Source of the DNA: a phage
Strand: one strand, 5' to 3'
Sequence record: PZ386972.1
Length of the DNA stretch: 64,000 nt
Part shown: positions 6,829 to 64,000 of the stretch, piece after piece
Layout of the letters: each line of letters starts with the position of its first letter
Position numbering within the stretch: position 1 is the stretch's first letter
The notes under the pieces: model-generated
What the model saw: only the letters and a program-made list of their open reading frames with translations
Database searches by the model: none
What the model was told of the DNA's origin: nothing
Translations under genes and position numbers: made by a program

Positions 6829-7603
6829 TATTATTTTTCTCCAATAGTTCTTTAATCGACAGGATTTCTATCCCATTCGTTTCGGCTTTCTTATAAGATG
6901 AGGAAGAACGCTTCGATTCATCCTCACAGATTAGGTATTTGACGTCTTTGGTAACGGATTTCTTAACCGTATACCCTAGACTTTCTAAATAGTTTGTTGC
7001 ATCCGTTCGATTTGCAAAATCTTGCAAAGATCCGGTAATACATACCGCGATTCCATTTGGCTGGGCAACTAATTCATCTGTAATGATGACGTCAGCTTTA
7101 GTGCCCTTAATACCAGTTGAAAATTTCCACGGTAATTCGATAACATCCTTGCCTTGTGGGGAATTTAGCCAGGCTTTATAATTTTCTCCAGCCTTGCCGT
7201 CAGCCTTCACATCATGGAAGCTAGTGCAATTTTGGGATAATTTCTTTGCTGCAACCTCTCCAATTAGAGGGATTCCTAAAGAACCGAGAACTGAACCAAA
7301 GTCAATGTCTCCGCGAACTTTAGTATTTAATTCGCTAATTAACTTAGCGGCAACCTTGCTACCCACGGCTCTAACCAAATCTTCTTCGGTTAGGTAAAAT
7401 AGTTCTGAGATCTTCGTCAGCTCCAGCTTCTCAATAGTTTTTGGACCAAAGCCCTTTAACTTCATTTTTGTACAGAAGTTCTCAATTAACTTACTTGATT
7501 GCGCTGGACAGTTGGACTTATTCCGACAAAATAATTGTCCGTTGACAAGATCTAGCTTAGAACCACAAGAGGGACATTGTGTTGGAATTTCGATTTTCAT
7601 CAA
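6821..7603 (-). CDS. ligB: NAD-dependent DNA ligase, C-terminal subunit (Zn finger, HhH, BRCT)
   Basis: 260 aa; Cys4 zinc finger CPSCGSKLDLVNGQLFCRNKSNCPAQ; HhH GFGPKTIEKL; BRCT-like C-terminus; own promoter at 7631-7659. Confidence 0.8.
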   Translation of the reverse strand: MMKIEIPTQCPSCGSKLDLVNGQLFCRNKSNCPAQSSKLIENFCTKMKLKGFGPKTIEKLELTKISELFYLTEEDLVRAVGSKVAAKLISELNTKVRGDIDFGSVLGSLGIPLIGEVAAKKLSQNCTSFHDVKADGKAGENYKAWLNSPQGKDVIELPWKFSTGIKGTKADVIITDELVAQPNGIAVCITGSLQDFANRTDATNYLESLGYTVKKSVTKDVKYLICEDESKRSSSSYKKAETNGIEILSIKELLEKNNNV

Positions 7604-7630
7604 ATTTCTTCCTTATCAATTTATATAAAT

Positions 7631-7659
7631 ATTATAGCAAGTATTTAAGCATTTAGCAA
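7631..7659 (-). promoter_or_regulatory. early promoter inside the gap between the two ligase ORFs
   Basis: Plus strand ATTATA 7631-7636 and TAGCAA 7654-7659 (minus-strand TTGCTA, 17 bp, TATAAT). Confidence 0.6.
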
Positions 7660-7802
7660 CTACAATTTTAACTAACTTTGCTTACCCTCGCCATAACTTT
7701 CTATCCCTCAACTGAATGATAATAGTATATACCTAAGCGGCGAAAATGTCAATAACCACTTTATAATTCCGATATGGTAGATGGGTAGCAAAGGGTTATG
7801 TA

Positions 7803-8774
7803 TTAATCGTATACTCGTTCTACTATGCACGGGATTACACCACCAGCACGAATCACTCGAATCTGGCAACCGATCTCTAGATCGAGAGAGTTAATATAAT
7901 CAACGTTATTAAGAGTCGCTTTAACAATTGTAGCATCATCAATAATTACCGGTTCGAAATAACCAACTGGAGTTACTTTACCAGAAGCCCCTACCTGCCA
8001 TTCAACTTTAGTAAGAGTTGTAACCTCGCCTTCTTCATCCTCTTTAATAGCGAATGCTCCACGAGGGAATTTATTAGTCCAGCCTTCACGGAAGAATTTG
8101 TTGTTGTCATTAATACGAACAACTTTACCATCCGTCGGAATCCATTTAAAGAAGGAACGCACATTAACAACTGTTAAGAAGTTCTCATTCTCCAGCCAAA
8201 GCATATCTTTTAAATATGCTTCTGTAATACCTACAGATTCAGCAGAACACTGGATACCATATGCAACGAAGATTAAACCACCTTCTCCGATACGTTGTAC
8301 AAAATCATCACTATCTTTGAGGTTAATAGCACCAGAGGCAAAGTTACGTTTATTTTCTACTTCTTTTGTAATTAGAACTTCACCAGTGATTTGAGTAGGT
8401 ATTTTTTGGGAAATCTTTTTAGGGATATTCAGCAATCTTACGTTGCTTGTGACATCATTTCCCAGAATACCATTGCCACGAGTTAGTGCTTGAACAAATT
8501 CTCCATTAATATATAACAGAGAAATCGCACAACCATCTAACTTATCAGTTTCTACCTGACCTAATGGGTTGAATGGGGGTTTATCTCCACGATTATAATA
8601 AACTTTCTGTAAAGAATACATACGATATAGATGTGGAATATCACCCTTAGGTCCGATCTCTTCTTCTAACGGGAAGCGTTTTACCAGGCAATCATACTCC
8701 TCATCTGAGATTAAAGACATACCTTGATAATATGCTTCTTGGCAACGTTTAATAAAGTCTTTTACATTGGTCAT
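7803..8774 (-). CDS. ligA: NAD-dependent DNA ligase, N-terminal adenylation subunit
   Basis: 323 aa; adenylation KxDG motif (ETDKLDGCAI); OB-fold region; separated from the C-terminal ORF by 199 bp. Confidence 0.8.
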   Translation of the reverse strand: MTNVKDFIKRCQEAYYQGMSLISDEEYDCLVKRFPLEEEIGPKGDIPHLYRMYSLQKVYYNRGDKPPFNPLGQVETDKLDGCAISLLYINGEFVQALTRGNGILGNDVTSNVRLLNIPKKISQKIPTQITGEVLITKEVENKRNFASGAINLKDSDDFVQRIGEGGLIFVAYGIQCSAESVGITEAYLKDMLWLENENFLTVVNVRSFFKWIPTDGKVVRINDNNKFFREGWTNKFPRGAFAIKEDEEGEVTTLTKVEWQVGASGKVTPVGYFEPVIIDDATIVKATLNNVDYINSLDLEIGCQIRVIRAGGVIPCIVERVYD

Positions 8775-9047
8775 TTATTCTGCCTCATAGTATGTGGGTT
8801 GTCTAGTGGATCCGTGCCATGTATAATTTTTGCAAAGATGCAAATATGTAGTTTTTACTAGCCTATCTGACAACGGAGAGTATATTTCAGCTACTAATAC
8901 TTCTTTTTCGTAATGAAGTGAAATCAGCTTATACCCACTTCTAGTTTTAGTATACTTTTCTCCATTAATCTTCTCCTCCCACATAAGTATAAGAGGCTGT
9001 CCGATGTACGGGAAAGGTTTAAGTGTACTTATACTTATCTTTTTCAC
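8775..9047 (-). CDS. hypothetical protein (90 aa)
   Basis: ORF track; directly abuts ligA start. Confidence 0.45.
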   Translation of the reverse strand: MKKISISTLKPFPYIGQPLILMWEEKINGEKYTKTRSGYKLISLHYEKEVLVAEIYSPLSDRLVKTTYLHLCKNYTWHGSTRQPTYYEAE

Positions 9048-9077
9048 TTTGCAACCCTCTCATTAATTTATATAAAT

Positions 9078-9106
9078 ATTATATAACAAAACTGAGTTGA
9101 AAGCAA
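9078..9106 (-). promoter_or_regulatory. early promoter (minus strand)
   Basis: Plus strand ATTATA 9078-9083 and AAGCAA 9101-9106; 17-bp spacer. Confidence 0.55.
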
Positions 9107-9133
9107 GTACATTTATAAAGAAAAAGCCAAGAA

Positions 9134-9442
9134 CTAGGCATTCTTGGCTTTGAGTTCTTCAGCTCGTTTCTGTACTTCATGTAAAACCTCAGATTCGCTA
9201 AGAATCTGTGTAAACGCATAGAAAAGCTGTGATGTTGTTTCTAGGGTGTAAGGAAAAGAGAAGCCAGATTTCGTTGGAAACCATTCATCATTAATATCAA
9301 GAAGCCAGTAACGAATACCCATGTATAGATTCCCACGAAATTCAGATACTGTTAATCTTACTTGTTCCCCCTCCTTCTCCCAAAGTATGATGGACTGGTC
9401 ATCAACGTGTCCTTCATAGTTTTGATTTACCTGTTCGCTCAT
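9134..9442 (-). CDS. hypothetical protein (102 aa)
   Basis: ORF track. Confidence 0.5.
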   Translation of the reverse strand: MSEQVNQNYEGHVDDQSIILWEKEGEQVRLTVSEFRGNLYMGIRYWLLDINDEWFPTKSGFSFPYTLETTSQLFYAFTQILSESEVLHEVQKRAEELKAKNA

Positions 9443-9454
9443 TTACATATCCCA

Positions 9455-9482
9455 AATACACAAAAAGCCCCATATAGGGGCT
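9455..9482 (-). terminator. rho-independent terminator (minus strand)
   Basis: Hairpin GCCCCTATATGGGGC followed by TTTTTG on the minus strand. Confidence 0.5.
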
Positions 9483-9492
9483 AATTGGTTTC

Positions 9493-9789
9493 TTATCGGC
9501 CTACTGGAGAAGCACGATCTAACTCTGATTGGAGGCTAGTCACACGACGGACTTTCTCGACAGGAATAAAACGGAAGCTATCATTAGTACGAGAGAAGAC
9601 AAGGATTTCATCATCTTTCGCTTTACGAATACGTTCACGTTTAATACGCTCAGCCAGATATTTATCTTGGGCTGGATCAAATTCCATCGTACCCTGAAGG
9701 TACGTGGTTCCTTTCTGACGAAGTTTCTCGTAATGAAGATAAAACTCACCAAATTTTTCACATTGTGCGATAATTTCAGCTTTGGTCAT
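9493..9789 (-). CDS. hypothetical protein (98 aa)
   Basis: ORF track. Confidence 0.5.
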   Translation of the reverse strand: MTKAEIIAQCEKFGEFYLHYEKLRQKGTTYLQGTMEFDPAQDKYLAERIKRERIRKAKDDEILVFSRTNDSFRFIPVEKVRRVTSLQSELDRASPVGR

Positions 9790-9825
9790 AACTGTGTTCC
9801 TTTTGTTGGTGGATTTATCTAAAAA

Positions 9826-10236
9826 TTACTTAGTGATAGCTCGGATTGCTTCTGCCAGATGAGCAGCCGCTTTACCGGTCAGTTTGTCGATAATCGCATC
9901 ATCCAGAAAATCTGGTGCTAGGCCAGCATCAGAGAATGCTGAACGAAGATCGGCGTGAGCTTGGGCTTTGGAGGTACGAGAACCACCGGAAGCTTTTTCT
10001 CCAGTAGATGCGCTAGATTTAGAAGCAGAGCCAGCAGCTTTCTTGATATATACACCTGCTTTGGTCAGCTTCATACGAAAACCGTTCGGAGTTACACCAT
10101 TTTCCTGAGCAATTTCGCTAACAATTTCCATGCTAACACCCGGACGTTCATCCTCTGGGAATTGCTCCATACGAGCAATGTATTCGGAAGACATTTTTTC
10201 GAACAGTTCATCAGTCCACTGAGTTGGAGTAGTCAT
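9826..10236 (-). CDS. hypothetical protein (136 aa)
   Basis: ORF track. Confidence 0.5.
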   Translation of the reverse strand: MTTPTQWTDELFEKMSSEYIARMEQFPEDERPGVSMEIVSEIAQENGVTPNGFRMKLTKAGVYIKKAAGSASKSSASTGEKASGGSRTSKAQAHADLRSAFSDAGLAPDFLDDAIIDKLTGKAAAHLAEAIRAITK

Positions 10237-10293
10237 ATTTTATATTTCCTTAATTAAGAATTAAACAGAATAGTTCTTTCAAACTATGAGAAT

Positions 10294-10322
10294 ATTATAT
10301 CAAGAATTATAGGATTAAGCAA
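10294..10322 (-). promoter_or_regulatory. early promoter (minus strand)
   Basis: Plus strand ATTATA 10294-10299 and AAGCAA 10317-10322; 17-bp spacer. Confidence 0.55.
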
Positions 10323-10342
10323 CTGAAATTTTTCGGTAACTG

Positions 10343-10630
10343 CTACACATCTAGTTCAACGATCTCCCAATCATCCGCCAATGCTTCCTCTAAGGTTAGA
10401 GATGTGGTTTTCCATGTTGCGTCTTTTATATCGAACTTGGTATATCCATCTTCATTGGGCCACCAGGTAAACTCGACAATATCATTATTATCAACATCTA
10501 CTTTTATAATAGTAGAGTAACAGGTACGAACATCCCAGTTACCCCAGCTATCCCGTTGGAGATATTTTACATCTCCATCTTTAAGCAAATCTGTTAGCTT
10601 ACTCACGGCGTTTTCCTTTCTCTTTATCAA
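10343..10630 (-). CDS. hypothetical protein (95 aa)
   Basis: ORF track. Confidence 0.45.
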   Translation of the reverse strand: MIKRKENAVSKLTDLLKDGDVKYLQRDSWGNWDVRTCYSTIIKVDVDNNDIVEFTWWPNEDGYTKFDIKDATWKTTSLTLEEALADDWEIVELDV

Positions 10631-11303
10631 GTTTCAAGGCGGCCTTAACAGCTTCGTTAATCAACGTAATAATTTCTTCACGAGTCCACTTATATCCTAG
10701 AGATTTTACGTCTACCCCTAACTTTTCCAGATGTTTAACAGAAGCCAGCTCGTAATTCATATAATGAACGTTCTGTTGTTTGCCTTCTGATAGAAGCCAT
10801 ACACGGTAGCAACCAACAGGATTATCCATTGCTTTTTTGATTTCACCGATACACTGGTATCCAGGAACCCAAACAAGCTCACCAACTGCAAATTCTTCTG
10901 CTACAGCATCATCAGGAATAATCGGAGGATTCAATGGATCTACAATATCATTCAAACGAAGTAGAGCACCATAGCGTTCCAGAACAGATTTAACCATTGC
11001 TACAGAACGATAATTACGATCGGCAATCTCTTCAAAAGAATCACCAGATAAATACTGCTCAATAACGTTGGCTAACTCGATGCCTTCAATGAGTGTGCCA
11101 CGTTTCTTTTTCTTCATTTCGGCAACTTGAATCTGGCGGTCTTGCCATTCTTCAATCATCCTTTCCATAGTTGGATTGGATGATACGCCGAGCATTTCAC
11201 ATGCTGCTTTCTTAGTACCACCGTTCTCCAGATGCTCTATAACCTTTTTAAAGACTTCATCCGGGATTTCATGGATATGTTTCTTTCTGCGAGAACCAGC
11301 CAT
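10599..11303 (-). CDS. putative DNA-binding protein (N-terminal HTH-like segment)
   Basis: 234 aa; GGTKKAACEMLGVSSNPTMERMI resembles a helix-turn-helix. Confidence 0.45.
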   Translation of the reverse strand: MAGSRRKKHIHEIPDEVFKKVIEHLENGGTKKAACEMLGVSSNPTMERMIEEWQDRQIQVAEMKKKKRGTLIEGIELANVIEQYLSGDSFEEIADRNYRSVAMVKSVLERYGALLRLNDIVDPLNPPIIPDDAVAEEFAVGELVWVPGYQCIGEIKKAMDNPVGCYRVWLLSEGKQQNVHYMNYELASVKHLEKLGVDVKSLGYKWTREEIITLINEAVKAALKLDKEKGKRRE

Positions 11304-11334
11304 ATTTAAACTCCTCTCTCAAATTTATGAATCT

Positions 11335-11363
11335 ATTATACAGAAAAATTTTCCTGAAAGCAA
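11335..11363 (-). promoter_or_regulatory. early promoter (minus strand)
   Basis: Plus strand ATTATA 11335-11340 and AAGCAA 11358-11363. Confidence 0.55.
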
Positions 11364-11371
11364 ATAAATTT

Positions 11372-11614
11372 TTACGATTCCTTGAGCAAAGAAGCAAGTT
11401 CAGCATAGACTTTATCTAACTCAAAGCCGATGCGAAGAGATACGTTAGTTTTCCGTTGTTTAAGTAACCACTCGGATATGTTAGGGATGCCAGCTAATCT
11501 ATGTGGTACCACCCTACATAGCTTTTCCGAAGTGTCGTAAACAGGAACTTTACGTTCTTTTACTGGGAACTTCCTTGTTTCCCATTTTTTATTCTTCACT
11601 GTCATTTCTAGCAC
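11372..11614 (-). CDS. hypothetical protein (80 aa)
   Basis: ORF track. Confidence 0.4.
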   Translation of the reverse strand: MLEMTVKNKKWETRKFPVKERKVPVYDTSEKLCRVVPHRLAGIPNISEWLLKQRKTNVSLRIGFELDKVYAELASLLKES

Positions 11615-14456
11615 CTAGCTCTGCCATTGCTTCATCATGCATATGTTTCTCCTCATCAGTCATAAACTTATATGGAATTGGCATACACTCGATTTTACAA
11701 TAAGTTCTGTACCAGTCTACAATATTCTCCGTGTTCATATCCTTACCAATACCCATCATACCAAGATACATTCTTGCATATTTTGGGTTAGCACTCTGAC
11801 CTGTTTTAAGGAAGAAATCTTTCTTTTTACCTTTCAAAGCTTCTATGAATGGTTTGATAGTGACATTTGAACACTTCTTAATATCCTCCCAGAACATCTC
11901 GTGCATCTTATGAAAGAATGCAGCTCTATCATTCGGTTTATCTTTGATATATTGTTCAACATGCTCAACCGTTACATCTTTAATAGACTCAAGATGATAA
12001 TAGCGAACAAGAAGTAGTTTAGCTTCATACGCATCTGCATGGCGGGGGGCACAATAATCAGGAGTTGAGTACAAAATGGCTTTGATTCGCTCTTCTGTAT
12101 ACTCTTTACCTGCACCTTCGATAGTTCCCCAGCTTTCACTGAAAATATCAATAGTTGCACCCTGATCAAGCAAGTAATAACGTAAAGTACTAGTATAGTT
12201 CCTAGACTCCAGCTCCCTGCGACGTGCGTATAATTGCTGTGCTAACTCCAGCCAACCCTCATCAATGTTATATTGTTCAGAACCTGCGGAAAATCCACTC
12301 GTAGATTTATCAATAAAATAATAAATGTTCTGAGCGCCACGGTCGCGCCTGATTGCTTGAAAACGCATGTTTGGCGCTTGGTTACTAGTTCTAGTAATAA
12401 CGAATACGTTATCAAAATAGTTGAAGTCAACACCACTCGTTACGGATGGACTACATAATAAGCAATCAATTTGTTGGTCAATTAGCTCATTAGTTGTGTA
12501 ATCCAGAATACGTCGAATATCCACATCAGACGTAGAGTTTGAGTGGATTTCCTTAACTAACGCACCCGTATTACGACGCAATGCCATGCCCTTCTCATTC
12601 AGTTCATCCGGACCACAGTCAGATACTAGGATAGATTTCTCACCCATCTCTAGGGAAGTCTGAAGTGCAACCCAAATACTGGATTCATCAGGGAACTCAT
12701 AAGCATGAGCTTTTGACAGCATTTTACGATGATGATTATAAAATGCAACCGGTTTATCAAACTCAATCAAAGAACCATATGCTTCAATTGTTTCTGCACT
12801 AATATCCCCATCAGATAATATAATGATTTTTGCAGTTGCAAGAATATCCCGAAGAACCTGAATGCACTCGCGACGTTGTTTAACAACCGGGGCGAATAAT
12901 AGGTCATTCATTACTGCATCACATTCATCAATAAAGATTGCATCAATTTGACCAATAAAACTCTTGAACTTATGCAAAGAGTGAATAGTTGTGGACATAC
13001 GGTCAATAGCACCACGCTTAAAATTAAGCATATCTACAGACTTATCATATTGTCCTGCGCTAAATTTCTTAGCGTTTGAAGATACCAGCGCTCTAGTATT
13101 TGTAACTGCTAAGAAATTACCTTTAATAACTCCTGAATCTAACCAACGCACAACCGCCGTGGTTTTACCTGTACCTAGACTTGCTTTTACAAAAGTCATA
13201 TAACCTTCTGGCGGTACAGTATTTAATTTCAAAAAGTTATCAGTTTCTAGGGAATTAGTTTCTAGCTTTTTAAGTGGAATACCTTTTAAAACATCAGGTA
13301 TATCACGTTTAGAATTATTAACAAACGCTTTCAGAGCCTGTTTACGACCGTTATTAAAGTAATCTTGAATATTACGACTATTATCTTTAGTTGCAATATA
13401 TTCTGATAAGGCTGGACGGATTTCTTTTTCTAGCCATGCAAAATCAACACCATCCTCTAAAGCTCTGTGATAGAGTTTAGGTATGATACGTAGATACACT
13501 CCATCCTCAGCTTCTTCTAGTTCGCTGATAGTTTCCTCTACTTTATCAGAGGCAGCTTTTTTACCTTTAATTTGATCGAGTAAAGAGTAAAACTCCTCCT
13601 TAAACTCACCTCTAGTTGTTTCATAGTCAACCAGATTATTAGGTAAATTTACTTTAGAACCCTTAACAAATACCAGACGTGAAGCACCCTCCGCCTTAAA
13701 CGGATCTACTATACCATCAGTAAATAACGGATCTGCAAAATAATGGAGCTGTACGGAAGAGTAATAAGCTAAGTCGGCAATATCAAAGCCATACTTTTGT
13801 CTACTACTTTCGTTGATAGATGTAAATAAGAATTTGATTTGACCCTGAGTTACTTTAACATTAGATTCTAGTATTAGGTGCATTCGGATACCTGGTTTTA
13901 GCCCAGCCGAAGACGATGCATGAGCGATAAACCCTGCATCGAGAGGAAACATGTCCTCACTAATACTATTTAACATTCTAATAATATGTCGAGCCATGCC
14001 AACAAGATCAAACTTGTTACAACCACCTGTATCTACAATACCATCCACGTCCATTGCAATTATATGACTTGGATTAGATACATTAAAGTTGCCCTTCTTA
14101 CGCCGCACATTATTTTTAGGTGCAAGACATCGACCTCGTACCGCAACGATATGAGGATCAGACGTTAAACGTCTCATAAGAGGGAGCATTTCTACTAGGG
14201 TTTGAGGATCAACTTCATCAATTACATCAAACTTGAAGGGCATTGAAGCTGGTTTACCTTCAGAATGCTTTGAGGAAAATCTTTTAGCAAAAAGATAGTC
14301 TTCTGCTTTAACTTCTCGCCAAATGCCTGTGGCTAAATCGCGATGAAATCCTGCATGACCTTGTAGGATTGAGAACACAACAATACTCCTGTGTTGGAAA
14401 TGAAATAAGTTTTCTTTAGGACTATTCAGAAAGAATAGAACAACTGTTACTGTCAA
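11589..14456 (-). CDS. large helicase-like protein with Walker A/B motifs, possible origin-binding or replication helicase
   Basis: 955 aa; Walker A SLGTGKTT; Walker B IFIDECD; embedded in the replication gene block. Confidence 0.55.
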   Translation of the reverse strand: MTVTVVLFFLNSPKENLFHFQHRSIVVFSILQGHAGFHRDLATGIWREVKAEDYLFAKRFSSKHSEGKPASMPFKFDVIDEVDPQTLVEMLPLMRRLTSDPHIVAVRGRCLAPKNNVRRKKGNFNVSNPSHIIAMDVDGIVDTGGCNKFDLVGMARHIIRMLNSISEDMFPLDAGFIAHASSSAGLKPGIRMHLILESNVKVTQGQIKFLFTSINESSRQKYGFDIADLAYYSSVQLHYFADPLFTDGIVDPFKAEGASRLVFVKGSKVNLPNNLVDYETTRGEFKEEFYSLLDQIKGKKAASDKVEETISELEEAEDGVYLRIIPKLYHRALEDGVDFAWLEKEIRPALSEYIATKDNSRNIQDYFNNGRKQALKAFVNNSKRDIPDVLKGIPLKKLETNSLETDNFLKLNTVPPEGYMTFVKASLGTGKTTAVVRWLDSGVIKGNFLAVTNTRALVSSNAKKFSAGQYDKSVDMLNFKRGAIDRMSTTIHSLHKFKSFIGQIDAIFIDECDAVMNDLLFAPVVKQRRECIQVLRDILATAKIIILSDGDISAETIEAYGSLIEFDKPVAFYNHHRKMLSKAHAYEFPDESSIWVALQTSLEMGEKSILVSDCGPDELNEKGMALRRNTGALVKEIHSNSTSDVDIRRILDYTTNELIDQQIDCLLCSPSVTSGVDFNYFDNVFVITRTSNQAPNMRFQAIRRDRGAQNIYYFIDKSTSGFSAGSEQYNIDEGWLELAQQLYARRRELESRNYTSTLRYYLLDQGATIDIFSESWGTIEGAGKEYTEERIKAILYSTPDYCAPRHADAYEAKLLLVRYYHLESIKDVTVEHVEQYIKDKPNDRAAFFHKMHEMFWEDIKKCSNVTIKPFIEALKGKKKDFFLKTGQSANPKYARMYLGMMGIGKDMNTENIVDWYRTYCKIECMPIPYKFMTDEEKHMHDEAMAELGARNDSEE

Positions 14457-14877
14457 TTTCTCAACAAATTAATTGCAAATACTGAAGTGGGGTGGCAACT
14501 TCCACTTTCACGCTGCGCTGCTGCTTTGCTATATCGCACAAATCCTTGAGGATGGCCGCTAAGCCAGATTTGCTCACCTAATGCTTCATATACTAGCTCA
14601 TACTAGATGCAATATAACTTACAGAATCACGTCTCGGAGTTTTTCACTCCTCCCGTCTCACTTCACAACCACCTCTATCTAGGTTGCTTCGAGGCCTTAC
14701 CAGGGTTCCTACGGGACGCAGATCGCTAAGTATTCTATTAACTATTTGTTTAAAAACTAACACGTAACAGTTAAAACAACCCTTAATGTGGCAGCCTAAC
14801 TGTTCCGTATCGCGGATTGTAAACAAGAAAAATTAGCAAAATCAATTTTTACTAATGTCTCTCAATTCAATATAAAT

Positions 14878-14906
14878 ATTATACCAAGATTTTGGGCATC
14901 ATGCAA
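14878..14906 (-). promoter_or_regulatory. early promoter (minus strand), about 420 nt upstream of the 955-aa gene
   Basis: Plus strand ATTATA 14878-14883 and ATGCAA 14901-14906 (minus-strand TTGCAT, 17 bp, TATAAT). Confidence 0.5.
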
Positions 14907-14945
14907 GTAAAATTTTCCGGATGGTGCTATCATTGGTCTTAAGTA

Positions 14946-49429: not shown

Positions 49430-50181
49430 TGTCAGTATTAGTCGGTTTACATGGTGAAGCTGGTTCGGGAAAAGATACCGTTGCAAAATTAATTATCGAT
49501 TGGTGTAATGACACGTATCCAACGTGTTTATCTCGTCGTTATAGTTTTGCTAAGCCCGTTTATGAACTTGCATCCGTAATCCTCGGTGTAACTCCAGAGT
49601 TTCTAGGAGAGCGCAGGGGGAAAGAGATTGACCAATGGTTTACGGTCACACAATCTCAGTTGGAACGAGCCAGGGATGTGTGGTTTAAGTACGGTATCGA
49701 TAAGTTTGAAGACTTCTCGTACGTTTGGCCTATTTTTGAGGAAAAATATCTTAATCCTCAACAACTTATCTCAGAGAATAAAGAAGACGGACTTTATAGT
49801 TTATTTATTTCTCCGAGAAAAATGTTACAGCTCGTAGGGACAGAGCTAGGAAGGCAGCTGGTGCATGAACGCATTTGGCTCATAATTCTGGAGCAATCCA
49901 TCGCTAAAGACGACCCAGACGTCGCCGTAATAACAGATGTTAGATTCCCCAATGAAGGAGAGCTACTCAGAGAAACAAACCATTTAGATATGGATTCTTT
50001 GATAGTAAATGTAGTACCCGCTGAGCAGAAGTTTACTATTAAATCAGATCATCCATCTGAAAGTGGTATTCCTGCAAAATATATTACCCACGAATTAGTT
50101 AATAAATTCGATGGTATCAATAACCTTAAACTAGAAGTTTATAACTTCTGTGACTTAGAGCTAGAACCACTAGTTGAATAA
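49429..50181 (+). CDS. deoxynucleoside monophosphate kinase-like protein
   Basis: 250 aa; N-terminal P-loop LHGEAGSGKDT as in phage dNMP kinases. Confidence 0.55.
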   Translation: MSVLVGLHGEAGSGKDTVAKLIIDWCNDTYPTCLSRRYSFAKPVYELASVILGVTPEFLGERRGKEIDQWFTVTQSQLERARDVWFKYGIDKFEDFSYVWPIFEEKYLNPQQLISENKEDGLYSLFISPRKMLQLVGTELGRQLVHERIWLIILEQSIAKDDPDVAVITDVRFPNEGELLRETNHLDMDSLIVNVVPAEQKFTIKSDHPSESGIPAKYITHELVNKFDGINNLKLEVYNFCDLELEPLVE

Positions 50182-59279: not shown

Positions 59280-59884
59280 TGACTTTTAATGCACAACAAT
59301 CTATTCAAGTAGTACCGGATCATGAATTGAATACGTGGGATTATAGCTTTAAAGATTTAACTGCTACTGTACAATTCAAATCTATGAAGCTAACATTTGC
59401 ACACGCTGACATTAGCGCCTGTAAAGATCTTGAAAGTAAGCTCGAAGATGCTCGTAAGATTTTTGGTACGGCTCGCATCCCCGCTGATAACCTGATTAAT
59501 GCACTGATCGATGCAGGGTACAAACTCGTGAAGACCGAGGTGAACCGCCCTAGTACTCCAGTGACTATTAGAGATCCGTGGCAATCAGGGTCAATCGCAC
59601 TGTTAAATAAATCATCGGATTTGCACAATATTCCATGCGGTGGTACGCTGTCATCTAACCAATCCTATCGAGTTGGGGAAGATTATGGCCCTTCTGTACA
59701 GTTGAAACATACTCAAGAAGCTTTTGAATCTGATATGCGAAGCGTAGCACCTGCGGATGCTGGAGTTTCTAGGAGTTCTGTTTGTACTATTCATTTTAAT
59801 AATCCTGGTAAACATGGAAGTTTAGAGGATGCTATTATGGAGGCGTTGGGAGCTGCTATTAACGAGAGTAAAAAAGATCAATAA
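59279..59884 (+). CDS. hypothetical protein (201 aa)
   Basis: ORF track. Confidence 0.45.
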   Translation: MTFNAQQSIQVVPDHELNTWDYSFKDLTATVQFKSMKLTFAHADISACKDLESKLEDARKIFGTARIPADNLINALIDAGYKLVKTEVNRPSTPVTIRDPWQSGSIALLNKSSDLHNIPCGGTLSSNQSYRVGEDYGPSVQLKHTQEAFESDMRSVAPADAGVSRSSVCTIHFNNPGKHGSLEDAIMEALGAAINESKKDQ

Positions 59885-60341: not shown

Positions 60342-61073
60342 ATGAGTATTAGTGAGAATTTAAAGACTATTATTAAGCTGGCTAAGAATGCAGACGGCAA
60401 ATGTGTTTCTGAACTAACTCCTGATGAAGCTCATGCAGTAGCATTCTGTTCTGAGTTTCATCCCGCAGCTTATACAGAAGCTGGAATTGTTAAATATAAT
60501 AAAGAAGAAAAATTCGTAACTCTATCTCCTTCTTATATTGCAATGAGAAAGATCATCAATTCTGTTGGTGATAAGATTGTAGGGTTCAAGGCAGATTCAT
60601 ATCATGTCTTTGCAGATCAGGAACTTCCAGTATTTAAAGAAGGAAATGTTAGAGTTGCACTAGAATTATATCCCGAGGAAAAGTTCATTCCACCTAAACG
60701 TTGTGAATATGATCATCTTCCTAGACTCCAAAGAAAAGATACTGGATTCCCTTATACAAAAGATGAAGTGTTGCTAGGGATTGCTTCTACGATTGCGCAG
60801 GTTCATCTATGTCTCGAAAAGAACCTAGAGATGCCATTAATCTTACAGTCTGCACATAAAGCAATGTTAAATGACTGGGATCAATTCTTTAAGATTATAG
60901 GAGCTGTCGGATTAGCACGTTTACTTCCTGCATTTGAGAACTCTGAAGTATTTGGCGAAGGTTCTTTCGGAACTGTAGATTATGATGCGCTAAAATCCCC
61001 ACACTCCTATCTTGCAACTTTTCTCTTCATGGTCTCGAAGGGTATCGTTCTCAAATACAAGCGGAAGGAATAA
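60342..61073 (+). CDS. hypothetical protein (243 aa)
   Basis: ORF track; last plus-strand gene before the repeat region. Confidence 0.5.
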   Translation: MSISENLKTIIKLAKNADGKCVSELTPDEAHAVAFCSEFHPAAYTEAGIVKYNKEEKFVTLSPSYIAMRKIINSVGDKIVGFKADSYHVFADQELPVFKEGNVRVALELYPEEKFIPPKRCEYDHLPRLQRKDTGFPYTKDEVLLGIASTIAQVHLCLEKNLEMPLILQSAHKAMLNDWDQFFKIIGAVGLARLLPAFENSEVFGEGSFGTVDYDALKSPHSYLATFLFMVSKGIVLKYKRKE

Positions 61074-61090
61074 ACGTTAACAAAATCTTC

Positions 61091-61120
61091 TTGACAACTC
61101 ATTAAGGTACATGTTATAAT
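61091..61120 (+). promoter_or_regulatory. consensus sigma70-type promoter (TTGACA, 18 bp, TATAAT) pointing into the repeat region
   Basis: -35 at 61091-61096, -10 at 61115-61120; no plus-strand ORF downstream. Confidence 0.5.
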
Positions 61121-61156
61121 AATCTCATAGATTAAAAACAACTTCTGTTTTTAGCT

Positions 61157-61438
61157 CTAGGCAACAAGATTATTGCTATCCCAACTCGAAGAGTACACCA
61201 GAGCCCCTGGCGCTAGGATGTATTCTGCAGCAGTTTTCACGGGATTAGCATACAGATCTTGAACGCCTAGAGCAGCAGACTTACGAGATTGGGGGATCTT
61301 ATATTTAAAATAAAAGTAAAACTTTTGACCACATAATTTACATTCAAGATGATACACCTGTTGCCGCTCATCTGCTAGGATGGCACAACACTTTCCTAGA
61401 AACTCCAGAGTTCTCACGAAATAATCACGAGATACCAC
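61157..61438 (-). CDS. hypothetical protein (93 aa)
   Basis: ORF track only; no promoter or RBS support found. Confidence 0.3.
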   Translation of the reverse strand: MVSRDYFVRTLEFLGKCCAILADERQQVYHLECKLCGQKFYFYFKYKIPQSRKSAALGVQDLYANPVKTAAEYILAPGALVYSSSWDSNNLVA

Positions 61439-61446
61439 TCTTTCTA

Positions 61447-61518
61447 GGGCGGTTCTCCTAAGTTTCTAGGAACATATACTAGGCGGTTTAATACAGGGCG
61501 GTTATTGGGAGGGCGGTT
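61447..61518. repeat. four direct copies of GGGCGGTT
   Basis: Copies at 61447, 61482 (GGCGGTT), 61496 and 61511. Confidence 0.7.
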
Positions 61519-61636
61519 ATTTCTAGGAGACATTTTTTGAAAACACATTTCCAGAAATTACTGTCGGATTTGCACATTGTGTTTCTAGAAATTTATGGTC
61601 GGATTTGCACAATCGCCTAAGTTTTTAGGAACATAT
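61456..61636. repeat. 22-bp direct repeat CCTAAGTTT(C/T)TAGGAACATATA, two copies
   Basis: Copies at 61456-61477 and 61615-61636, one mismatch. Confidence 0.7.
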
Positions 61637-62161
61637 AATCTCTTGAAAATGGCAGCATTATTTCGGGCCGAAGGCCCATGATTGCCTGAGTTTTTAGAGC
61701 CACAAGAATTTTCACTTGTCAAGCTATTTTGCCCCATTTTGCTAATAAAATTTTACTTTATCTGCACTTATCTCAAATTAACCCAAATCTTCTCAACTCT
61801 TCTCCAAAATCCCCGCAAATCAGGTGCTCCGCACCAAACATGCGCCCCTCCCGCAGTTCCCCCAAATTTCTCTCGCTCTCTCAACTTCTCCCCAAACTCA
61901 CACAATCACACACCCTCTAATCGAAGTCACAAAAATCTTGTCGGATTCGCACATCTTAATCCTAGAAAAACCATGTCGGATTTGCACATACCCCACAGGA
62001 TTCGAACGCAGTTCGTGATTGCTGGAGTTTTTAGGAAAATTCATTGTCGGATTTGCACACTATAAAAATTTTTCGGGTCGGATTTGCACACTACCAAAAA
62101 TTGTCGGATTTGCACATACACGCCCCCGCGTAATCCATGGGGGCAAATGTCGGTTTTGCAC
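61563..62161. repeat. eight direct copies of the 15-mer TGTCGGATTTGCACA, irregularly spaced
   Basis: Copies at 61563, 61597, 61939, 61974, 62044, 62075, 62101 and 62147; variants GGTCGG, GATTCG, GGTTTTG. Confidence 0.8.
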
Positions 62162-62167
62162 AAAAGC

Positions 62168-62185
62168 GCAGGGCAATTGCCCTGC
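62168..62185. repeat. perfect 18-bp palindrome GCAGGGCAATTGCCCTGC
   Basis: Self-complementary sequence read directly. Confidence 0.8.
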
Positions 62186-62191
62186 CCACCT

Positions 62192-62345
62192 GAATGCAAA
62201 TAAAAATGAGAATCGTTTGCATTTAAAAAGTGAAATGAGAATGATAATGATTCGCATTTAGAAAGTGAAATGATTCTCATTTAGAAAGTGGAATGATTCT
62301 CATTTAGATAGTGAAATACAAATGATAATGATTCGCATTTAAGAA
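62192..62345. repeat. array of AATGAGAAT / ATTCTCATT and AATGATAATGATT (Fur-box-like) palindromic repeats
   Basis: AATGATAATGATTCGCATTT twice (62242, 62320); GAAATGATTCTCATTTAGA twice; inverted partner AATGAGAATCG at 62205. Confidence 0.7.
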
Positions 62346-62372
62346 CGGAAGTGAGAAACACTATTATTTAAG

Positions 62373-62381
62373 TTATCCACA
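62373..62381. promoter_or_regulatory. perfect DnaA box TTATCCACA
   Basis: Exact 9-mer match. Confidence 0.6.
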
Positions 62382-62445
62382 GACTTATTAACAGCACGAT
62401 TTGACTTGACAGAATCCTAGCCATTTTGAGGCGTTATTAACAGAC

Positions 62446-62454
62446 TTATCCACA
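62446..62454. promoter_or_regulatory. perfect DnaA box TTATCCACA (second copy, 73 bp from the first)
   Basis: Exact 9-mer match within repeated CAGACTTAT context. Confidence 0.6.
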
Positions 62455-62462
62455 GCTTATCC

Positions 62463-62482
62463 TACTGTATAAATATACAGTA
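62463..62482. promoter_or_regulatory. LexA (SOS) box-like palindrome TACTGTATAAATATACAGTA
   Basis: Matches CTGT-N8-ACAG with AT-rich core. Confidence 0.55.
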
Positions 62483-62847
62483 TTCCTACGCAGTGAATAA
62501 TTCTAATATAGCGTTAAAACGTCCTAGATCGCATTCTAACGCGTTTAATTTTGGTGGGGATACTAAAACAAGGGCAAAATTGGAGGAGGCTTGAAAATTA
62601 GTTAGCTCGCTAACGATCACACAAGGCGACACGTAACATCCTAATCATTAGCAGGCTAACCATCGCGGGCGCGGTCAAATAAGAATGATTCTCATTTGAG
62701 AATTGGGGCACTTCCTGATAGTTGCGCCCCGTGATTATTACAGTAGTGGGCAACCGTTACGCTTTGCCCATTCCCGCCACTCATCTTGATGTCTAGACTT
62801 GCGACGGCGTACTAAAAACCGTTTATACCAGTGATTAAACCATCGTT

Positions 62848-63081
62848 TCATAAATCCTCCTCCGGTAGTCGATGCGTGATTTTTTCCTCCTCCCCATAGG
62901 AATCCGCCAAATGCTGATAATAACCCTCGTGATCATAAATCACTTTATCATACTCGCCACGCTCGACCGCTTGCCGATTCTCTGGCGTATCGGGCACGTA
63001 AAAAACGTCTACCATCGTAGTAGTTTTGGTCACAATAATTTTATTGCTCATAGTAACTCCTAGTAAATATATTTTTGCCAA
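62848..63081 (-). CDS. hypothetical protein (77 aa)
   Basis: ORF track; GGAGG RBS on the minus strand upstream of ATG. Confidence 0.4.
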   Translation of the reverse strand: MAKIYLLGVTMSNKIIVTKTTTMVDVFYVPDTPENRQAVERGEYDKVIYDHEGYYQHLADSYGEEEKITHRLPEEDL

Positions 63082-63151
63082 TAGTGGCGAACGTTATCGC
63101 CACCAGCGGAATCATTAGCTGCCTCAACATTACCAACGAAAATATATAATT

Positions 63152-63511
63152 TCATTGCGCCACCTTTCGAAACGCTGTTTCAATACTATCAGCCGTGGAT
63201 TGAATATACGCGCCTTTCATTATCAGGCGCTCGGTGCATACCTTGCGGAAAATATTAATAAAATCCTCTTCATTTTCTGCAATCAATGCTTCCCCCATGA
63301 CCTGAATATCACAAGATGCAAAGGTCAAAAATTGAAATGCTAGTTCACGGGCAACGACCGCATTGATTTTATAATGCGCCTTGCCCTCATAAATATTAAT
63401 AACGCCCTTGTAAGCTGGGGAAAGCTGATTTAAGTAATTTGCTAGTAATGCCGGACGGCAATTAGCAACAAAGCGATTGCCTTCATAAATTATCATTTGC
63501 ATAGCTCCCAA
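63152..63511 (-). CDS. hypothetical protein (119 aa)
   Basis: ORF track; GGAGCTATGCAA start context. Confidence 0.45.
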   Translation of the reverse strand: MGAMQMIIYEGNRFVANCRPALLANYLNQLSPAYKGVINIYEGKAHYKINAVVARELAFQFLTFASCDIQVMGEALIAENEEDFINIFRKVCTERLIMKGAYIQSTADSIETAFRKVAQ

Positions 63512-63738
63512 ATAGTTCCGCCGATGATCATTAGCTGACTAATAATTATCAGAATAAAACCAATTGAAGGCAGGACGCCCCAATATTGGAACGCCCTTTT
63601 AATTTGTTGAATCATTTGTTAGCCTCCCAATCAGATAGCCAGATAAAAGCATAAAAATCCCCAATGAAAGGGGATCATTTTTAAATAAGGTGGCGGTAAA
63701 ACCGCCAACCATTGCAAGGATAATAATAATAACGCTTT

Positions 63739-63951
63739 TCATAGTACCCCACGAAAGGCCGCGTAAAAGGTGGCAAAGTGTTTAACCGTTTCAGCGATAA
63801 CGTTGCCGCGCTTATCAAATTTCTTTTCTGTAACACGGAAGGCGTTTTTATTCCGCGCTACATATTCGATTTTACAATCAGGACGCTCAAACGTGTTTAC
63901 ATCCACCAGCTTAAAGCCTTTCGAACGTGCAAGGGAAACGTTGCGAATCAT
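63739..63951 (-). CDS. hypothetical protein (70 aa)
   Basis: ORF track; AGGAGAATAAAAAATG start context. Confidence 0.4.
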   Translation of the reverse strand: MIRNVSLARSKGFKLVDVNTFERPDCKIEYVARNKNAFRVTEKKFDKRGNVIAETVKHFATFYAAFRGVL

Positions 63952-64000
63952 TTTTTATTCTCCTTTACTAGTCATGCAGCCCAGCAGATAAGAAAATGCA

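What the first reader, a model, noticed from the sequence alone, without database searches (positions are those of the whole stretch)
61440..62165. Dense non-coding repeat region: 8 copies of TGTCGGATTTGCACA plus GGGCGGTT and 22-bp repeats
The stretch is about 0.9 kb with no credible ORF and three independent repeat families, bounded by a consensus promoter on the left and a perfect 18-bp palindrome on the right. The 15-mer ends in TTTGCACA, a degenerate DnaA-box-like core. The architecture resembles the repeat-rich injection-stop region at the inner boundary of the terminal repeat in T5-like phages; that is an inference from position and content.
Basis: partly seen in the sequence, partly recalled or inferred. 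Interest (0 to 1): 0.6.

Follow-up and report, generated by a model that had tools for sequence, protein, structure and literature searches.

The report
Phage T5 terminal-repeat boundary repeats
This is the already-described "direct repeat D" array of T5-like phages, a non-coding set of protein-binding repeats across the inner end of the long terminal repeat. What it does is still unproven, and it is probably not a DnaA-box cluster.

Summary
Eight same-strand copies of TGTCGGATTTGCACA (4 exact, 4 with one mismatch) lie at 61562-62162. With them are GGGCGGTT repeats, a 25-nt pair, an AGTTTYTAGR family, and a perfect 18-bp palindrome at 62168-62185.

The window is a T5-like phage read in reverse. 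The region is homologous to T5 9650-10330, where GenBank AY587007 already annotates these as "direct repeat D" copies 1-8, palindrome J and the major 7.9% nick. RefSeq T5 labels most of it "injection stop signal".

What I add:
- A 13-nt core, GTCGGATTTGCAC, is conserved in sequence, strand and layout across four Demerecviridae lineages (T5-like, Klebsiella, Pectobacterium, Vibrio phages), while spacers and neighbouring genes diverge.
- The mature terminal-repeat end (window 61696|61697) always falls between an inner cluster of about 6 copies and an outer cluster of 2-6 copies, inside a near-invariant block.
- The DnaA-box resemblance fails. The base at box position 9 differs by lineage, the non-box half is equally conserved, and genuine TTATCCACA boxes sit unchanged nearby.

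Best guess (about 0.4): binding sites for a phage-encoded protein that marks where the genome end is cut or packaged. The main rival (about 0.3) is a role in restarting two-step DNA injection.

The parts
61447..61518 (+). GGGCGGTT family (AACCGCCC on the T5 top strand): 61447-61454, 61482-61488 (7/8 match), 61496-61503, 61511-61518. It lies on the unique-sequence side, 180-250 nt beyond the terminal-repeat end.
   Evidence: The pair with 15-nt spacing is conserved in nearly all T5-like loci, in Klebsiella phages and in My1. A single ACCGCC(C) copy also sits 35-45 nt inside the LEFT genome end of T5, My1 and Thalassa.
61454..61478 (+). 25-nt repeat, copy 1 (TCTCCTAAGTTTCTAGGAACATATA); contains an AGTTTCTAGG core.
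   Evidence: (family D9).
61562..61576 (+). DR-D copy, equivalent to T5 DR-D8 (exact); outer cluster, outside the terminal repeat.
61597..61611 (+). DR-D copy, equivalent to T5 DR-D7 (GGTCGG..., 1 mismatch); outer cluster.
61613..61637 (+). 25-nt repeat, copy 2 (AGTTTTTAGG core).
61640..61740 (.). The most conserved block of the region. It contains the invariant hairpin GGGCCGAAGGCCC (61665-61677), an AGTTTTTAGA motif (61689-61698) and the inferred terminal-repeat / mature right genome end at 61696|61697 (GAGTTTTTA|GAGCCACAAG).
   Evidence: Pairwise column identity is 0.93 overall and 1.0 for 61660-61679. This is the only part that BLAST still detects in Klebsiella Sugarlandvirus phages. The annotated ends of T5 and phiR2-01 map to exactly this position. 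My1's end aligns to the same motif, IME260's lies within 20 nt, and three further genomes start 243 nt before DR-D6.
61700..61935 (-). Strand-asymmetric tract inside the repeat end. It is C-rich and G-poor on the window + strand, so G-runs (TTTTGGGG, TTGGG) lie on the T5 top strand and run 5'->3' toward the genome end. It includes the equivalents of T5 DR-A2 and DR-A3 (61772-61810).
   Evidence: GC skew about -0.63 over 61700-61950; mapping. The same G-run richness is seen in IME260, My1 and Thalassa.
61939..61953 (+). DR-D copy, equivalent to T5 DR-D6 (TTC variant); first copy of the inner cluster, inside the terminal repeat.
61974..61988 (+). DR-D copy, equivalent to T5 DR-D5, displaced by 10 nt relative to T5 (spacing 35 instead of 25).
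62016..62038 (+). 19-nt family copy (TGATTGCTGGAGTTTTTAGGAAA) with an AGTTTTTAGG core.
   Evidence: (family D8, inverted pair I6).
62045..62059 (+). DR-D copy, equivalent to T5 DR-D4.
62076..62090 (+). DR-D copy, equivalent to T5 DR-D3.
62102..62116 (+). DR-D copy, equivalent to T5 DR-D2.
62148..62162 (+). DR-D copy, equivalent to T5 DR-D1. In this phage it is the variant GGTTTTGCACA, the only copy that happens to meet the DnaA-box consensus.
62166..62185 (-). Nick motif GCGCAGGG (equivalent to the T5 major 7.9% single-strand interruption) overlapping the 18-bp palindrome (T5 palindrome J). On the - strand it reads as a terminator-like hairpin followed by GCTTTTGTGC.

Best explanation
Identity (near certain): this is the 'direct repeat D' (DR-D) array of phage T5's Repeat Region 3, together with its companion repeats, in a T5-like genome read in reverse. 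It is untranslated DNA lying across the inner end of the roughly 10-kb terminal repeat. Mechanism (leading hypothesis, inferred): the 13-nt core GTCGGATTTGCAC is a binding site for a sequence-specific protein, most likely phage-encoded. Copies are arranged head-to-tail in two clusters on either side of a near-invariant block, and the mature right genome end is formed inside that block. Protein bound to both clusters would assemble a larger complex that marks the site in replicated concatemers where the terminal repeat ends. That complex would then direct cutting, packaging initiation or repeat duplication there, in the way repeated terminase-binding sites flank the cut in P1 pac or lambda cos. 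The copy of the array at the left repeat/unique junction is also the first DNA to follow the injection pause, so a second use in restarting DNA entry is not excluded.
For: Identity: about 90% nucleotide identity to T5 9099-10899, with every DR-D, palindrome J and the nick motif transferring one-to-one. Binding-site character: DR-D core columns have 0.93 identity against 0.69-0.82 for adjacent spacers. All core positions carry about 1.8-2 bits in 75 sites from 9 phages. Orientation is strictly single-strand in all 45 loci examined. Paired copies occur only on T5-sized contigs among 2.9 million viral contigs. The non-coding DNA is 80-95% identical in phages whose adjacent gene is only 27-50% identical at protein level. 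The architecture is conserved across lineages after spacers have diverged: Klebsiella Shiner and IME260, Pectobacterium My1, Vibrio Thalassa. The repeat end is bracketed in every lineage. T5 and phiR2-01 ends map to window 61696|61697, between DR-D7 and DR-D6. IME260 has 6 copies inside and 6 outside. My1 has 6 inside and 3-4 outside, and its end aligns to the T5 cut motif GGGGGCAAAA..TTGACAAnTGAAAA-N12-14-|(T)AAAAAC. Thalassa has 2 outside and at least 6 inside. A phage-specific ligand is suggested by the concerted lineage-specific change of the base after the core: A in T5-like and Klebsiella phages, T in My1, C in Thalassa.
Against: No experiment links DR-D to packaging, and how T5 generates its termini is itself unknown. 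The distance from the cut to the nearest DR-D copy varies widely (10-350 nt), which is odd for sites that would position a nuclease. The left genome end has no DR-D copies. Some annotated repeat ends may have been set by homology to T5 rather than measured, and others disagree: chee24 maps to 61903, Kenya-K37/K38 to about 61725, K36 to 61071, and Seafire to the nick site. The array also starts only about 50 nt beyond the estimated injection stop point, which equally suits an injection role.
Confidence: 0.4

Rival explanations
1. Injection restart or stop element. The DR-D array is part of the cis-acting signal for T5 two-step DNA transfer. After about 8% of the genome has entered, the next DNA to emerge is DR-D1 to DR-D6. 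The pre-early DNA-binding protein A2 (with A1) would bind successive same-orientation sites and ratchet or release the DNA so that second-step transfer proceeds. Alternatively, a host or virion protein bound here helps cause the pause.
For: RefSeq T5 includes DR-D1 to DR-D6 in its 'injection stop signal' feature. DR-D1 begins about 50 nt beyond the estimated shear point and 4 nt from the 7.9% nick and palindrome J. A2 is an essential DNA-binding dimer with no known target. A2 is conserved wherever DR-D is found: 66% identity in Klebsiella phages and about 41% in Vibrio phages. Two-step transfer and DR-D are both family-wide peculiarities.
Against: This model gives no reason for the repeat end to fall between the two clusters in every lineage. 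[quoted passage not shown] There are no binding data.
Confidence: 0.3
2. Operator or insulator array. DR-D copies are operators for a phage regulator controlling transcription across the boundary between the pre-early (repeat) and early (unique) regions. Examples would be blocking read-through past the palindrome J terminator, or controlling the consensus promoter at 61091 that points into the region.
For: The array lies between convergent transcription units. It is flanked by a terminator-like hairpin (62168-62185, - strand) and a 12/12 sigma-70 promoter with no downstream ORF.
Against: No promoter overlaps any DR-D copy. Eight to twelve unidirectional sites spread over 600-700 nt of DNA without promoters is unlike known operators. 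The model does not explain the bracketing of the repeat end.
Confidence: 0.08
3. Iteron-type replication origin. DR-D copies are iterons for a phage initiator, working with the adjacent DnaA boxes (62373, 62446) and A+T-rich repeats.
For: Same-orientation 13-15-nt repeats with irregular spacing lie next to consensus DnaA boxes and A+T-rich repeats, which superficially resembles plasmid and P1-type origins.
Against: According to Davison's preprint, electron-microscopy mapping places T5 origins near the middle of the genome, and the replication genes lie in the second-step DNA. No initiator gene is adjacent. The DnaA boxes are 200-300 nt away, beyond another repeat family.
Confidence: 0.07
4. 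DnaA-box cluster. The TTTGCACA end of each 15-mer binds host DnaA, extending Davison's model in which membrane-bound DnaA arrests the entering DNA.
For: ATTTGCACA matches TTWTNCACA at 8 of 9 positions, and one copy (62154, TTTTGCACA) matches fully. True DnaA boxes are nearby.
Against: Seven of eight copies fail the consensus. The GTCGG half outside the 9-mer is just as invariant. The common T-to-C variant hits box position 4 (16 of 75 sites). Box position 9 is T in My1 and C in Thalassa in essentially all copies, while genuine TTATCCACA boxes in the same regions stay consensus.
Confidence: 0.05
5. Protein-coding. Some database records annotate hypothetical proteins across this DNA.
For: chee24 P24_0014 (177 aa) and Seafire gp018 are annotated over the array.
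Against: The ORF is not preserved in this window at 92% nucleotide identity. Indels of 1, 2 and 10 nt occur between close relatives. Conservation peaks on the 13-mers rather than showing codon periodicity.
Confidence: 0.01

Closest known systems
Phage T5 'direct repeat D' copies 1-9 / Repeat Region 3 / annotated injection stop signal (GenBank AY587007 and NC_005859; Davison 2020 preprint, 10.1101/866236)
   Same: Homologous DNA. It has the same 15-mer (TGTGCAAATCCGACA on the T5 top strand) and the same order: palindrome J with the nick, then DR-D1 to D6, DR-A2 and A3, the repeat end, then DR-D7 and D8.
   Different: This phage lacks T5's DR-D9, and DR-D5 is shifted by 10 nt. Palindrome J is a perfect 18-mer here, against 17 nt in T5. 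DR-D1 carries an A-to-T change.
P1 pac site and lambda cosB/cosQ: repeated terminase-binding elements flanking a cut site (recalled from established literature, not tested here)
   Same: Short repeated elements lie on both sides of the point where the mature DNA end is made. The central cut region is conserved, and the numbers of elements on the two sides are unequal.
   Different: No terminase binding has been shown. The spacing from cut to repeats is variable and longer (10-350 nt). T5-type genomes have exact long direct terminal repeats rather than cohesive ends or headful ends.
T7 SRL/SRR short-repeat arrays adjoining its 160-bp terminal repetition (recalled from Dunn and Studier 1983; not tested here)
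   Same: Arrays of short direct repeats lie next to the boundary of a direct terminal repeat in a virulent coliphage, and their function is also unclear.
   Different: T7's repeats are about 7 bp and lie outside the repeat at both ends. Here the unit is 13-15 bp and brackets only the inner (right) repeat boundary.
Iteron replication origins (P1 oriR, pSC101, F) and DnaA-box clusters (oriC, datA)
   Same: Unidirectional short repeats lie near consensus DnaA boxes and A+T-rich DNA.
   Different: There is no adjacent initiator gene. The motif departs from the DnaA consensus and diverges from it further in other lineages. T5 origins are reported elsewhere in the genome.

Membership tests
T5 DR-D array / Repeat Region 3 | Sequence homology to T5 9650-10410 | tested here: met
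   About 90% identity, collinear alignment.
T5 DR-D array / Repeat Region 3 | 15-mer TGTGCAAATCCGACA in multiple same-strand copies | tested here: met
   8 copies with at most 1 mismatch, all on one strand.
T5 DR-D array / Repeat Region 3 | Position next to palindrome J and the 7.9% nick motif, and across the inner end of the terminal repeat | tested here: met
   Palindrome and GCGCAGGG at 62166-62185; repeat end transferred from T5 and phiR2-01 to 61696|61697. The repeat itself cannot be seen twice within a 64-kb window.
T5 injection stop signal (functional) | Cis-acting arrest of DNA transfer at about 8% of the genome | not testable with these tools
   Requires infection experiments. The literature has not assigned the function to DR-D.
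DnaA-box cluster | Match to TT(A/T)TNCACA | tested here: not met
   Only 1 of 8 copies matches (62154); the rest have A at box position 1, and one of them (61939, ATTCGCACA) also has C at position 4.
DnaA-box cluster | Conservation confined to the 9-mer, and box-defining bases kept across lineages | tested here: not met
   GTCGG outside the 9-mer is equally conserved. Box position 9 becomes T in My1 and C in Thalassa, while true boxes persist.
DnaA-box cluster | DnaA binding | not testable with these tools
   Needs EMSA, footprinting or ChIP.
pac/cos-type terminase recognition region | Coincides with the site where a mature genome end is generated | tested here: met
   Annotated or deposited ends of T5, phiR2-01, My1 and three IMG/VR genomes map to the same motif; IME260 and K37/K38 map within 20-30 nt; Thalassa's end lies inside its array. 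Some of these ends may have been set by homology.
pac/cos-type terminase recognition region | Repeated elements flanking the cut | tested here: met
   Counts outside + inside the repeat: 2+6 (window), 3+6 (T5), 6+6 (IME260), 3-4+6 (My1), 2+>=6 (Thalassa).
pac/cos-type terminase recognition region | Bound by the terminase small subunit and required for packaging | not testable with these tools
   No data exist. T5 packaging recognition is undefined in the literature searched.
Iteron-type origin | Adjacent initiator gene, and origin activity at the site | tested here: not met
   Flanking ORFs have no Pfam match. Davison's preprint cites origin mapping near the genome centre. Activity itself was not testable.
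Known RNA families / tRNA | Covariance-model or ARAGORN match | tested here: not met
   No Rfam hit better than E = 0.58, and no tRNA.

The most novel reading that the evidence does not exclude
The DR-D clusters, the invariant cut-site block with its hairpin, the G-run tract and the ACCGCCC elements together form the terminus-generating (pac-like) module of all Demerecviridae. ACCGCCC elements also occur 35-45 nt inside the left genome end in three subfamilies. The complete two-cluster array exists only once in virion DNA, at the left repeat/unique junction. A protein complex assembled on it could therefore also set the famous 8% injection pause, linking two unexplained T5 traits (exact 10-kb repeats and two-step DNA entry) to one nucleoprotein complex.
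Probability: 0.25. Interest if true: 0.65.

Novelty: already known. Interest (0 to 1): 0.3.

Why it matters
As a discovery it is not new. These repeats have been annotated in T5 since 2005 and discussed in T5 reviews. It matters only because the element sits at the centre of a question open for more than 50 years: why T5 DNA entry stops at 8% and how it restarts. It also bears on the unknown way in which T5-type phages make exact 10-kb terminal repeats. The comparison made here gives concrete, cheap experiments: a 13-nt core fixed across subfamilies, always bracketing the repeat end, and not a DnaA box. It also warns annotators of two things. ORFs called across this DNA are spurious, and PhageTerm can mistake the 7.9% nick for a genome end.

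Tried and rejected
- Rfam (E-value mode) and ARAGORN over 60900-62900 found nothing credible.
- Coding potential was rejected: ORFs are not preserved between close relatives.
- A direct comparison of T5's left and right repeat boundaries found only one shared 8-mer (TAACCGCC, E about 3), which is not significant on its own. It became interesting only after My1 and Thalassa showed the same element at their left ends.
- A link between DR-D and the T5 nicking system was rejected. The other GCGCAGGG sites in the window (35033, 49611) have no DR-D-like neighbour; the best core match has 5-6 mismatches, which is background level.
- A structured RNA downstream of the 61091 promoter has only weak support: a closing stem with 3 covarying pairs and an unfavourable covariation term.
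- Pfam on T5 A2 and on the adjacent 243-aa protein gave no family.
- There is no second copy of the repeat segment inside the window, so the duplication cannot be verified internally.
- Davison's 2015 review (PMC4743489) and the supplements of the 2020 preprint are not held in the library.
A fold for A2 would not decide between the hypotheses.

Full report

Yes. Reading 60800-64000 and running the repeat finder show a 15-mer, TGTCGGATTTGCACA. It is exact at 61562, 61974, 62045 and 62102. It has one mismatch at 61597, 61939, 62076 and 62148. All copies are on the + strand.

Allowing up to three mismatches there are 12 hits in the 64-kb window against 1.59 expected, and none of 100 shuffles reach 12.

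GGGCGGTT occurs at 61447, 61496 and 61511, with GGCGGTT at 61482. It occurs nowhere else on that strand in the window.

These share a core, AGTTTYTAGR. That core has 8 hits in the window against 1.26 expected, and five of them lie within 61395-62035.

The perfect 18-bp palindrome GCAGGGCAATTGCCCTGC is at 62168-62185. On the minus strand it scores as a terminator-like hairpin followed by GCTTTTGTGC.

The "consensus promoter" is a 12/12 TTGACA-18-TATAAT with an upstream TG at 61091-61120. That is about 320 nt outside the stated coordinates.

No ORF is credible. The + strand ORFs are 63-127 aa. The 177-aa ORF that one relative annotates over this DNA is interrupted here, and close relatives differ by 1-, 2- and 10-nt indels while keeping the 15-mers.

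**2. What genome, and what part of it?**

A megablast of 61000-63000 hits 457 phage records, all T5-like, at 90-94% identity for the best matches. The matches lie at about 9-11 kb of records that annotate a "left terminal repeat" there. The window is the reverse complement of the standard T5 map.

GenBank AY587007 (T5) annotates the following in the homologous stretch:
- palindrome J at 9650-9666;
- "major single-stranded nick 1, 7.9%" at 9661-9668;
- direct repeat D copies 1-6 at 9672-9895;
- direct repeat A copies 2 and 3 at 10026-10064;
- the end of the left terminal repeat at 10139;
- direct repeat D copies 7-9 at 10225-10409.

A three-way alignment with coordinate transfer maps these one-to-one onto the window:

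| T5 feature | Window coordinates |
|---|---|
| Palindrome J | 62168-62185 |
| Nick motif | 62166-62173 |
| DR-D1 to DR-D6 | 62148, 62102, 62076/7, 62045, 61974 (shifted 10 nt), 61939 |
| DR-A2/A3 | 61772-61810 |
| Repeat end | 61696\|61697 |
| DR-D7, DR-D8 | 61597/8, 61562 |

T5's DR-D9 has no counterpart here.

RefSeq NC_005859 labels 9140-10149 as "injection stop signal (iss)". [quoted passage not shown] The feature is therefore already described.

**3. What the literature says it does**

Nothing specific. Davison estimates the first-step-transfer shear point at about 9618 (window about 62217). He regards the inverted repeat with paired DnaA boxes (9332-9462, window 62350-62480) and the adjacent DRE repeats as the likely stop signal. 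[quoted passage not shown] A 2023 paper says its exact position is undetermined in most phages. How T5 forms its termini is described as poorly understood.

However, these particular repeats lie distal to the mapped stop, and their function is open.

**4. New comparative evidence**

(a) Constraint.
- In an eight-phage alignment, DR-D core columns have pairwise identity 0.93, against 0.69-0.82 for neighbouring spacers.
- The block 61640-61740 scores 0.93, and 1.0 over 61660-61679.
- About 450 records keep the whole region at 78% identity or better. The adjacent gene (window 60342-61073) falls to 27-50% amino-acid identity among the same phages.

(b) Motif.
- From 75 sites in nine phages the core is GTCGGATT(T/C)GCAC, followed by A.
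- Information is uniformly high across the core, including GTCGG, which lies outside the DnaA-like 9-mer.
- There are no copies on the opposite strand.
- In 45 fetched loci, every copy within a locus lies on one strand.
- Two exact cores within 8-38 nt occur only on T5-sized contigs (95-122 kb) in IMG/VR.

(c) Depth of conservation.
- Klebsiella phages (Sugarlandvirus) share by BLAST only window 61690-61765. Yet they carry 11-12 copies of the same motif on both sides of that block, plus GGGCGGTT, the AATGATAAT-type repeats and paired TTATCAACA boxes.
- Pectobacterium phage My1 (Mccorquodalevirinae) has the same order of elements, with the motif mostly AGTGCAAATCCGAC.
- Vibrio phage Thalassa (Ermolyevavirinae; A2 protein only about 41% identical) has eight or nine copies of GTCGGATTTGCACCT.
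- The fixed core is therefore 13 nt. The next base changes in concert within each lineage: A, T or C.

(d) The repeat end is always bracketed.

| Phage | Where the repeat end falls |
|---|---|
| T5, Yersinia phiR2-01 | Identical aligned position, GAGTTTTTA\|GA(T/G)CCACA, window 61696\|61697 |
| Three more genomes | Start exactly 243 nt before DR-D6, i.e. the same point |
| My1 | Aligns to the same motif, GGGGGCAAAA..TTGACAAnTGAAAA-N12-14-\|(T)AAAAAC |
| IME260 | 20 nt away |
| Kenya-K37/K38 | About 29 nt away |
| Thalassa | 10 nt after one copy, with two copies outside and at least six inside |

There are outliers. chee24 maps to 61903 and K36 to 61071. Seafire's PhageTerm call lands exactly on the nick (AAAAG|CGCAGGGC, window 62167), which is probably a nick artefact. 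Some of the concordant ends may have been set by homology rather than measured.

(e) Between the repeat end and the inner cluster, the DNA is strongly strand-asymmetric. GC skew is -0.63 over 61700-61950. That means G-runs on the T5 top strand, running toward the genome end. The same is true in IME260, My1 and Thalassa.

(f) The GGGCGGTT family (AACCGCCC on the T5 top strand) lies 160-250 nt beyond the repeat end in T5-like phages and My1, and about 500 nt beyond it in the Klebsiella phage IME260. A single ACCGCC(C), embedded in AGTCTnnTnACCGCC, also lies 27-44 nt inside the LEFT genome end of T5, My1 and Thalassa. In My1's 14-kb locus the 7-mer occurs only at those three places. Thalassa lacks the cluster at the right boundary.

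**5. Mechanism**

The DnaA reading fails on four counts:
- Seven of eight copies miss TTWTNCACA.
- The non-box half of the motif is equally conserved.
- The common T-to-C variant hits box position 4.
- Box position 9 is replaced in My1 and Thalassa, while genuine TTATCCACA boxes in the same regions stay consensus.

The concerted lineage-specific change suggests a ligand that co-evolves with the phage.

Two functions fit. The repeat end falls between an inner and an outer cluster in every lineage, inside a near-invariant block. I therefore favour a role in marking the repeat end for cutting, packaging initiation or repeat duplication on concatemers. This is analogous to the repeated elements that flank the cut in P1 pac or lambda cos, and reminiscent of T7's SRL/SRR arrays (comparisons from memory, not tested). 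I put this at about 0.4.

The main rival, at about 0.3, is that A2 or A1-A2 binds the array to restart DNA entry. A2 is the essential pre-early DNA-binding dimer and has no known target. DR-D1 starts about 50 nt past the estimated stop.

The two roles could coexist, because the complete two-cluster array exists only once in virion DNA, at the left repeat/unique junction. Operator (0.08), iteron-origin (0.07), DnaA (0.05) and coding (0.01) readings are weaker, for the reasons given under the rival explanations. All functional steps are inferred; none is shown.

**6. Verdict**

The DnaA hint is not supported. The feature is already known, being annotated in T5. Interest is low to moderate. The finding itself is a rediscovery. 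The family-wide 13-nt core, the bracketing of the repeat end and the shared ACCGCCC element are testable leads on how T5-type phages make their ends and pause injection.

Noticed in passing
window 62198-62349 and 62684-62706: The 23-bp repeats just right of the finding (T5 DRC/DRE) look like Fur boxes. The best match to GATAATGATAATCATTATC in the whole window is at 62237-62255 (15/19), and two of the four 14/19 hits are also here. The 7-1-7 core matches 12/14 at 62242 and 62323, and 13/14 in chee24 and Kenya phages. The repeats are conserved in Klebsiella phages and My1. The T5 iss preprint does not mention Fur or iron, and no held paper links Fur to this region. The unit AATGAGAATCATTCTCATT is itself a 9-1-9 palindrome that differs from the Fur consensus at two symmetric positions.
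   Followed up: partly
T5 L003 1-50; My1 L048 1-50; Thalassa L045 16603-16550 (minus strand): The left genome ends of three subfamilies share AGTCTnnTnACCGCC(C) at 27-44 nt from the end. In My1 and Thalassa it sits within a hairpin, AATGAGAAyAAGTCTCATT. ACCGCCC is the reverse complement of the GGGCGGT repeats found beyond the right repeat end.
   Followed up: partly
window 61700-61935: G-run-rich strand (TTTTGGGG, TTGGG, GGGGG) running 5'->3' toward the mature right genome end, which is a telomere-like polarity. GC skew is -0.63. The feature is conserved in Klebsiella, Pectobacterium and Vibrio relatives.
   Followed up: partly
window 61091-61425: A perfect sigma-70 promoter (61091-61120) of the T5 early-promoter style points toward the repeat, but has no RBS or ORF after it. 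It is followed by a hypervariable segment of about 130 nt (61130-61300, identity 0.47) closed by a conserved inverted repeat, CTCTAGG...CCTAGAG. After that comes a conserved block at 61340-61425 (identity 0.80). This may be a non-coding transcript reading into the repeat junction. RNA-structure support is weak.
   Followed up: partly
Salmonella phage Seafire MK050846, L008 1400 (window 62167): The 'terminal repeat predicted with PhageTerm' ends exactly at the T5-type nick motif (AAAAG|CGCAGGGC), not at the T5 repeat end. Natural nicks can evidently masquerade as genome termini in read-start analyses. Annotated repeat ends in close relatives scatter over 61071-62167.
   Followed up: yes
window 35033 and 49611: Two more GCGCAGGG motifs lie on the + strand, each preceded by GTTTCYWGGAGA. 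The one at 49611 is close to where T5's 18.5% major nick should map, and it is preceded by an AGTTTCTAGG motif of the same family as those in the finding region.
   Followed up: partly
window 59613-59627 and 60905-60919; also T5 L033 6198: Additional same-strand DR-D-like copies lie inside coding sequence on the unique side: CATCGGATTTGCACA at 59613 and TGTCGGATTAGCACG at 60905. Several relatives, including T5, have an exact core copy about 1.8 kb beyond DR-D8.
   Followed up: no
window 20069-56051 (+ strand) and 7602-14917 (- strand): A large family (more than 20 copies) of 50-65-nt repeats of the form AAAAATTcATTTGCT...TGTATAATA...ATAAATTGATGAG. This is the T5 early promoter plus leader consensus, and it switches strand at about 15-20 kb.
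   Followed up: no
window 60342-61073: The gene next to the repeat region (243 aa, no Pfam match) is only 27-50% identical among phages whose adjacent non-coding DNA is 80-95% identical. This is an unusually sharp contrast in constraint.
   Followed up: partly
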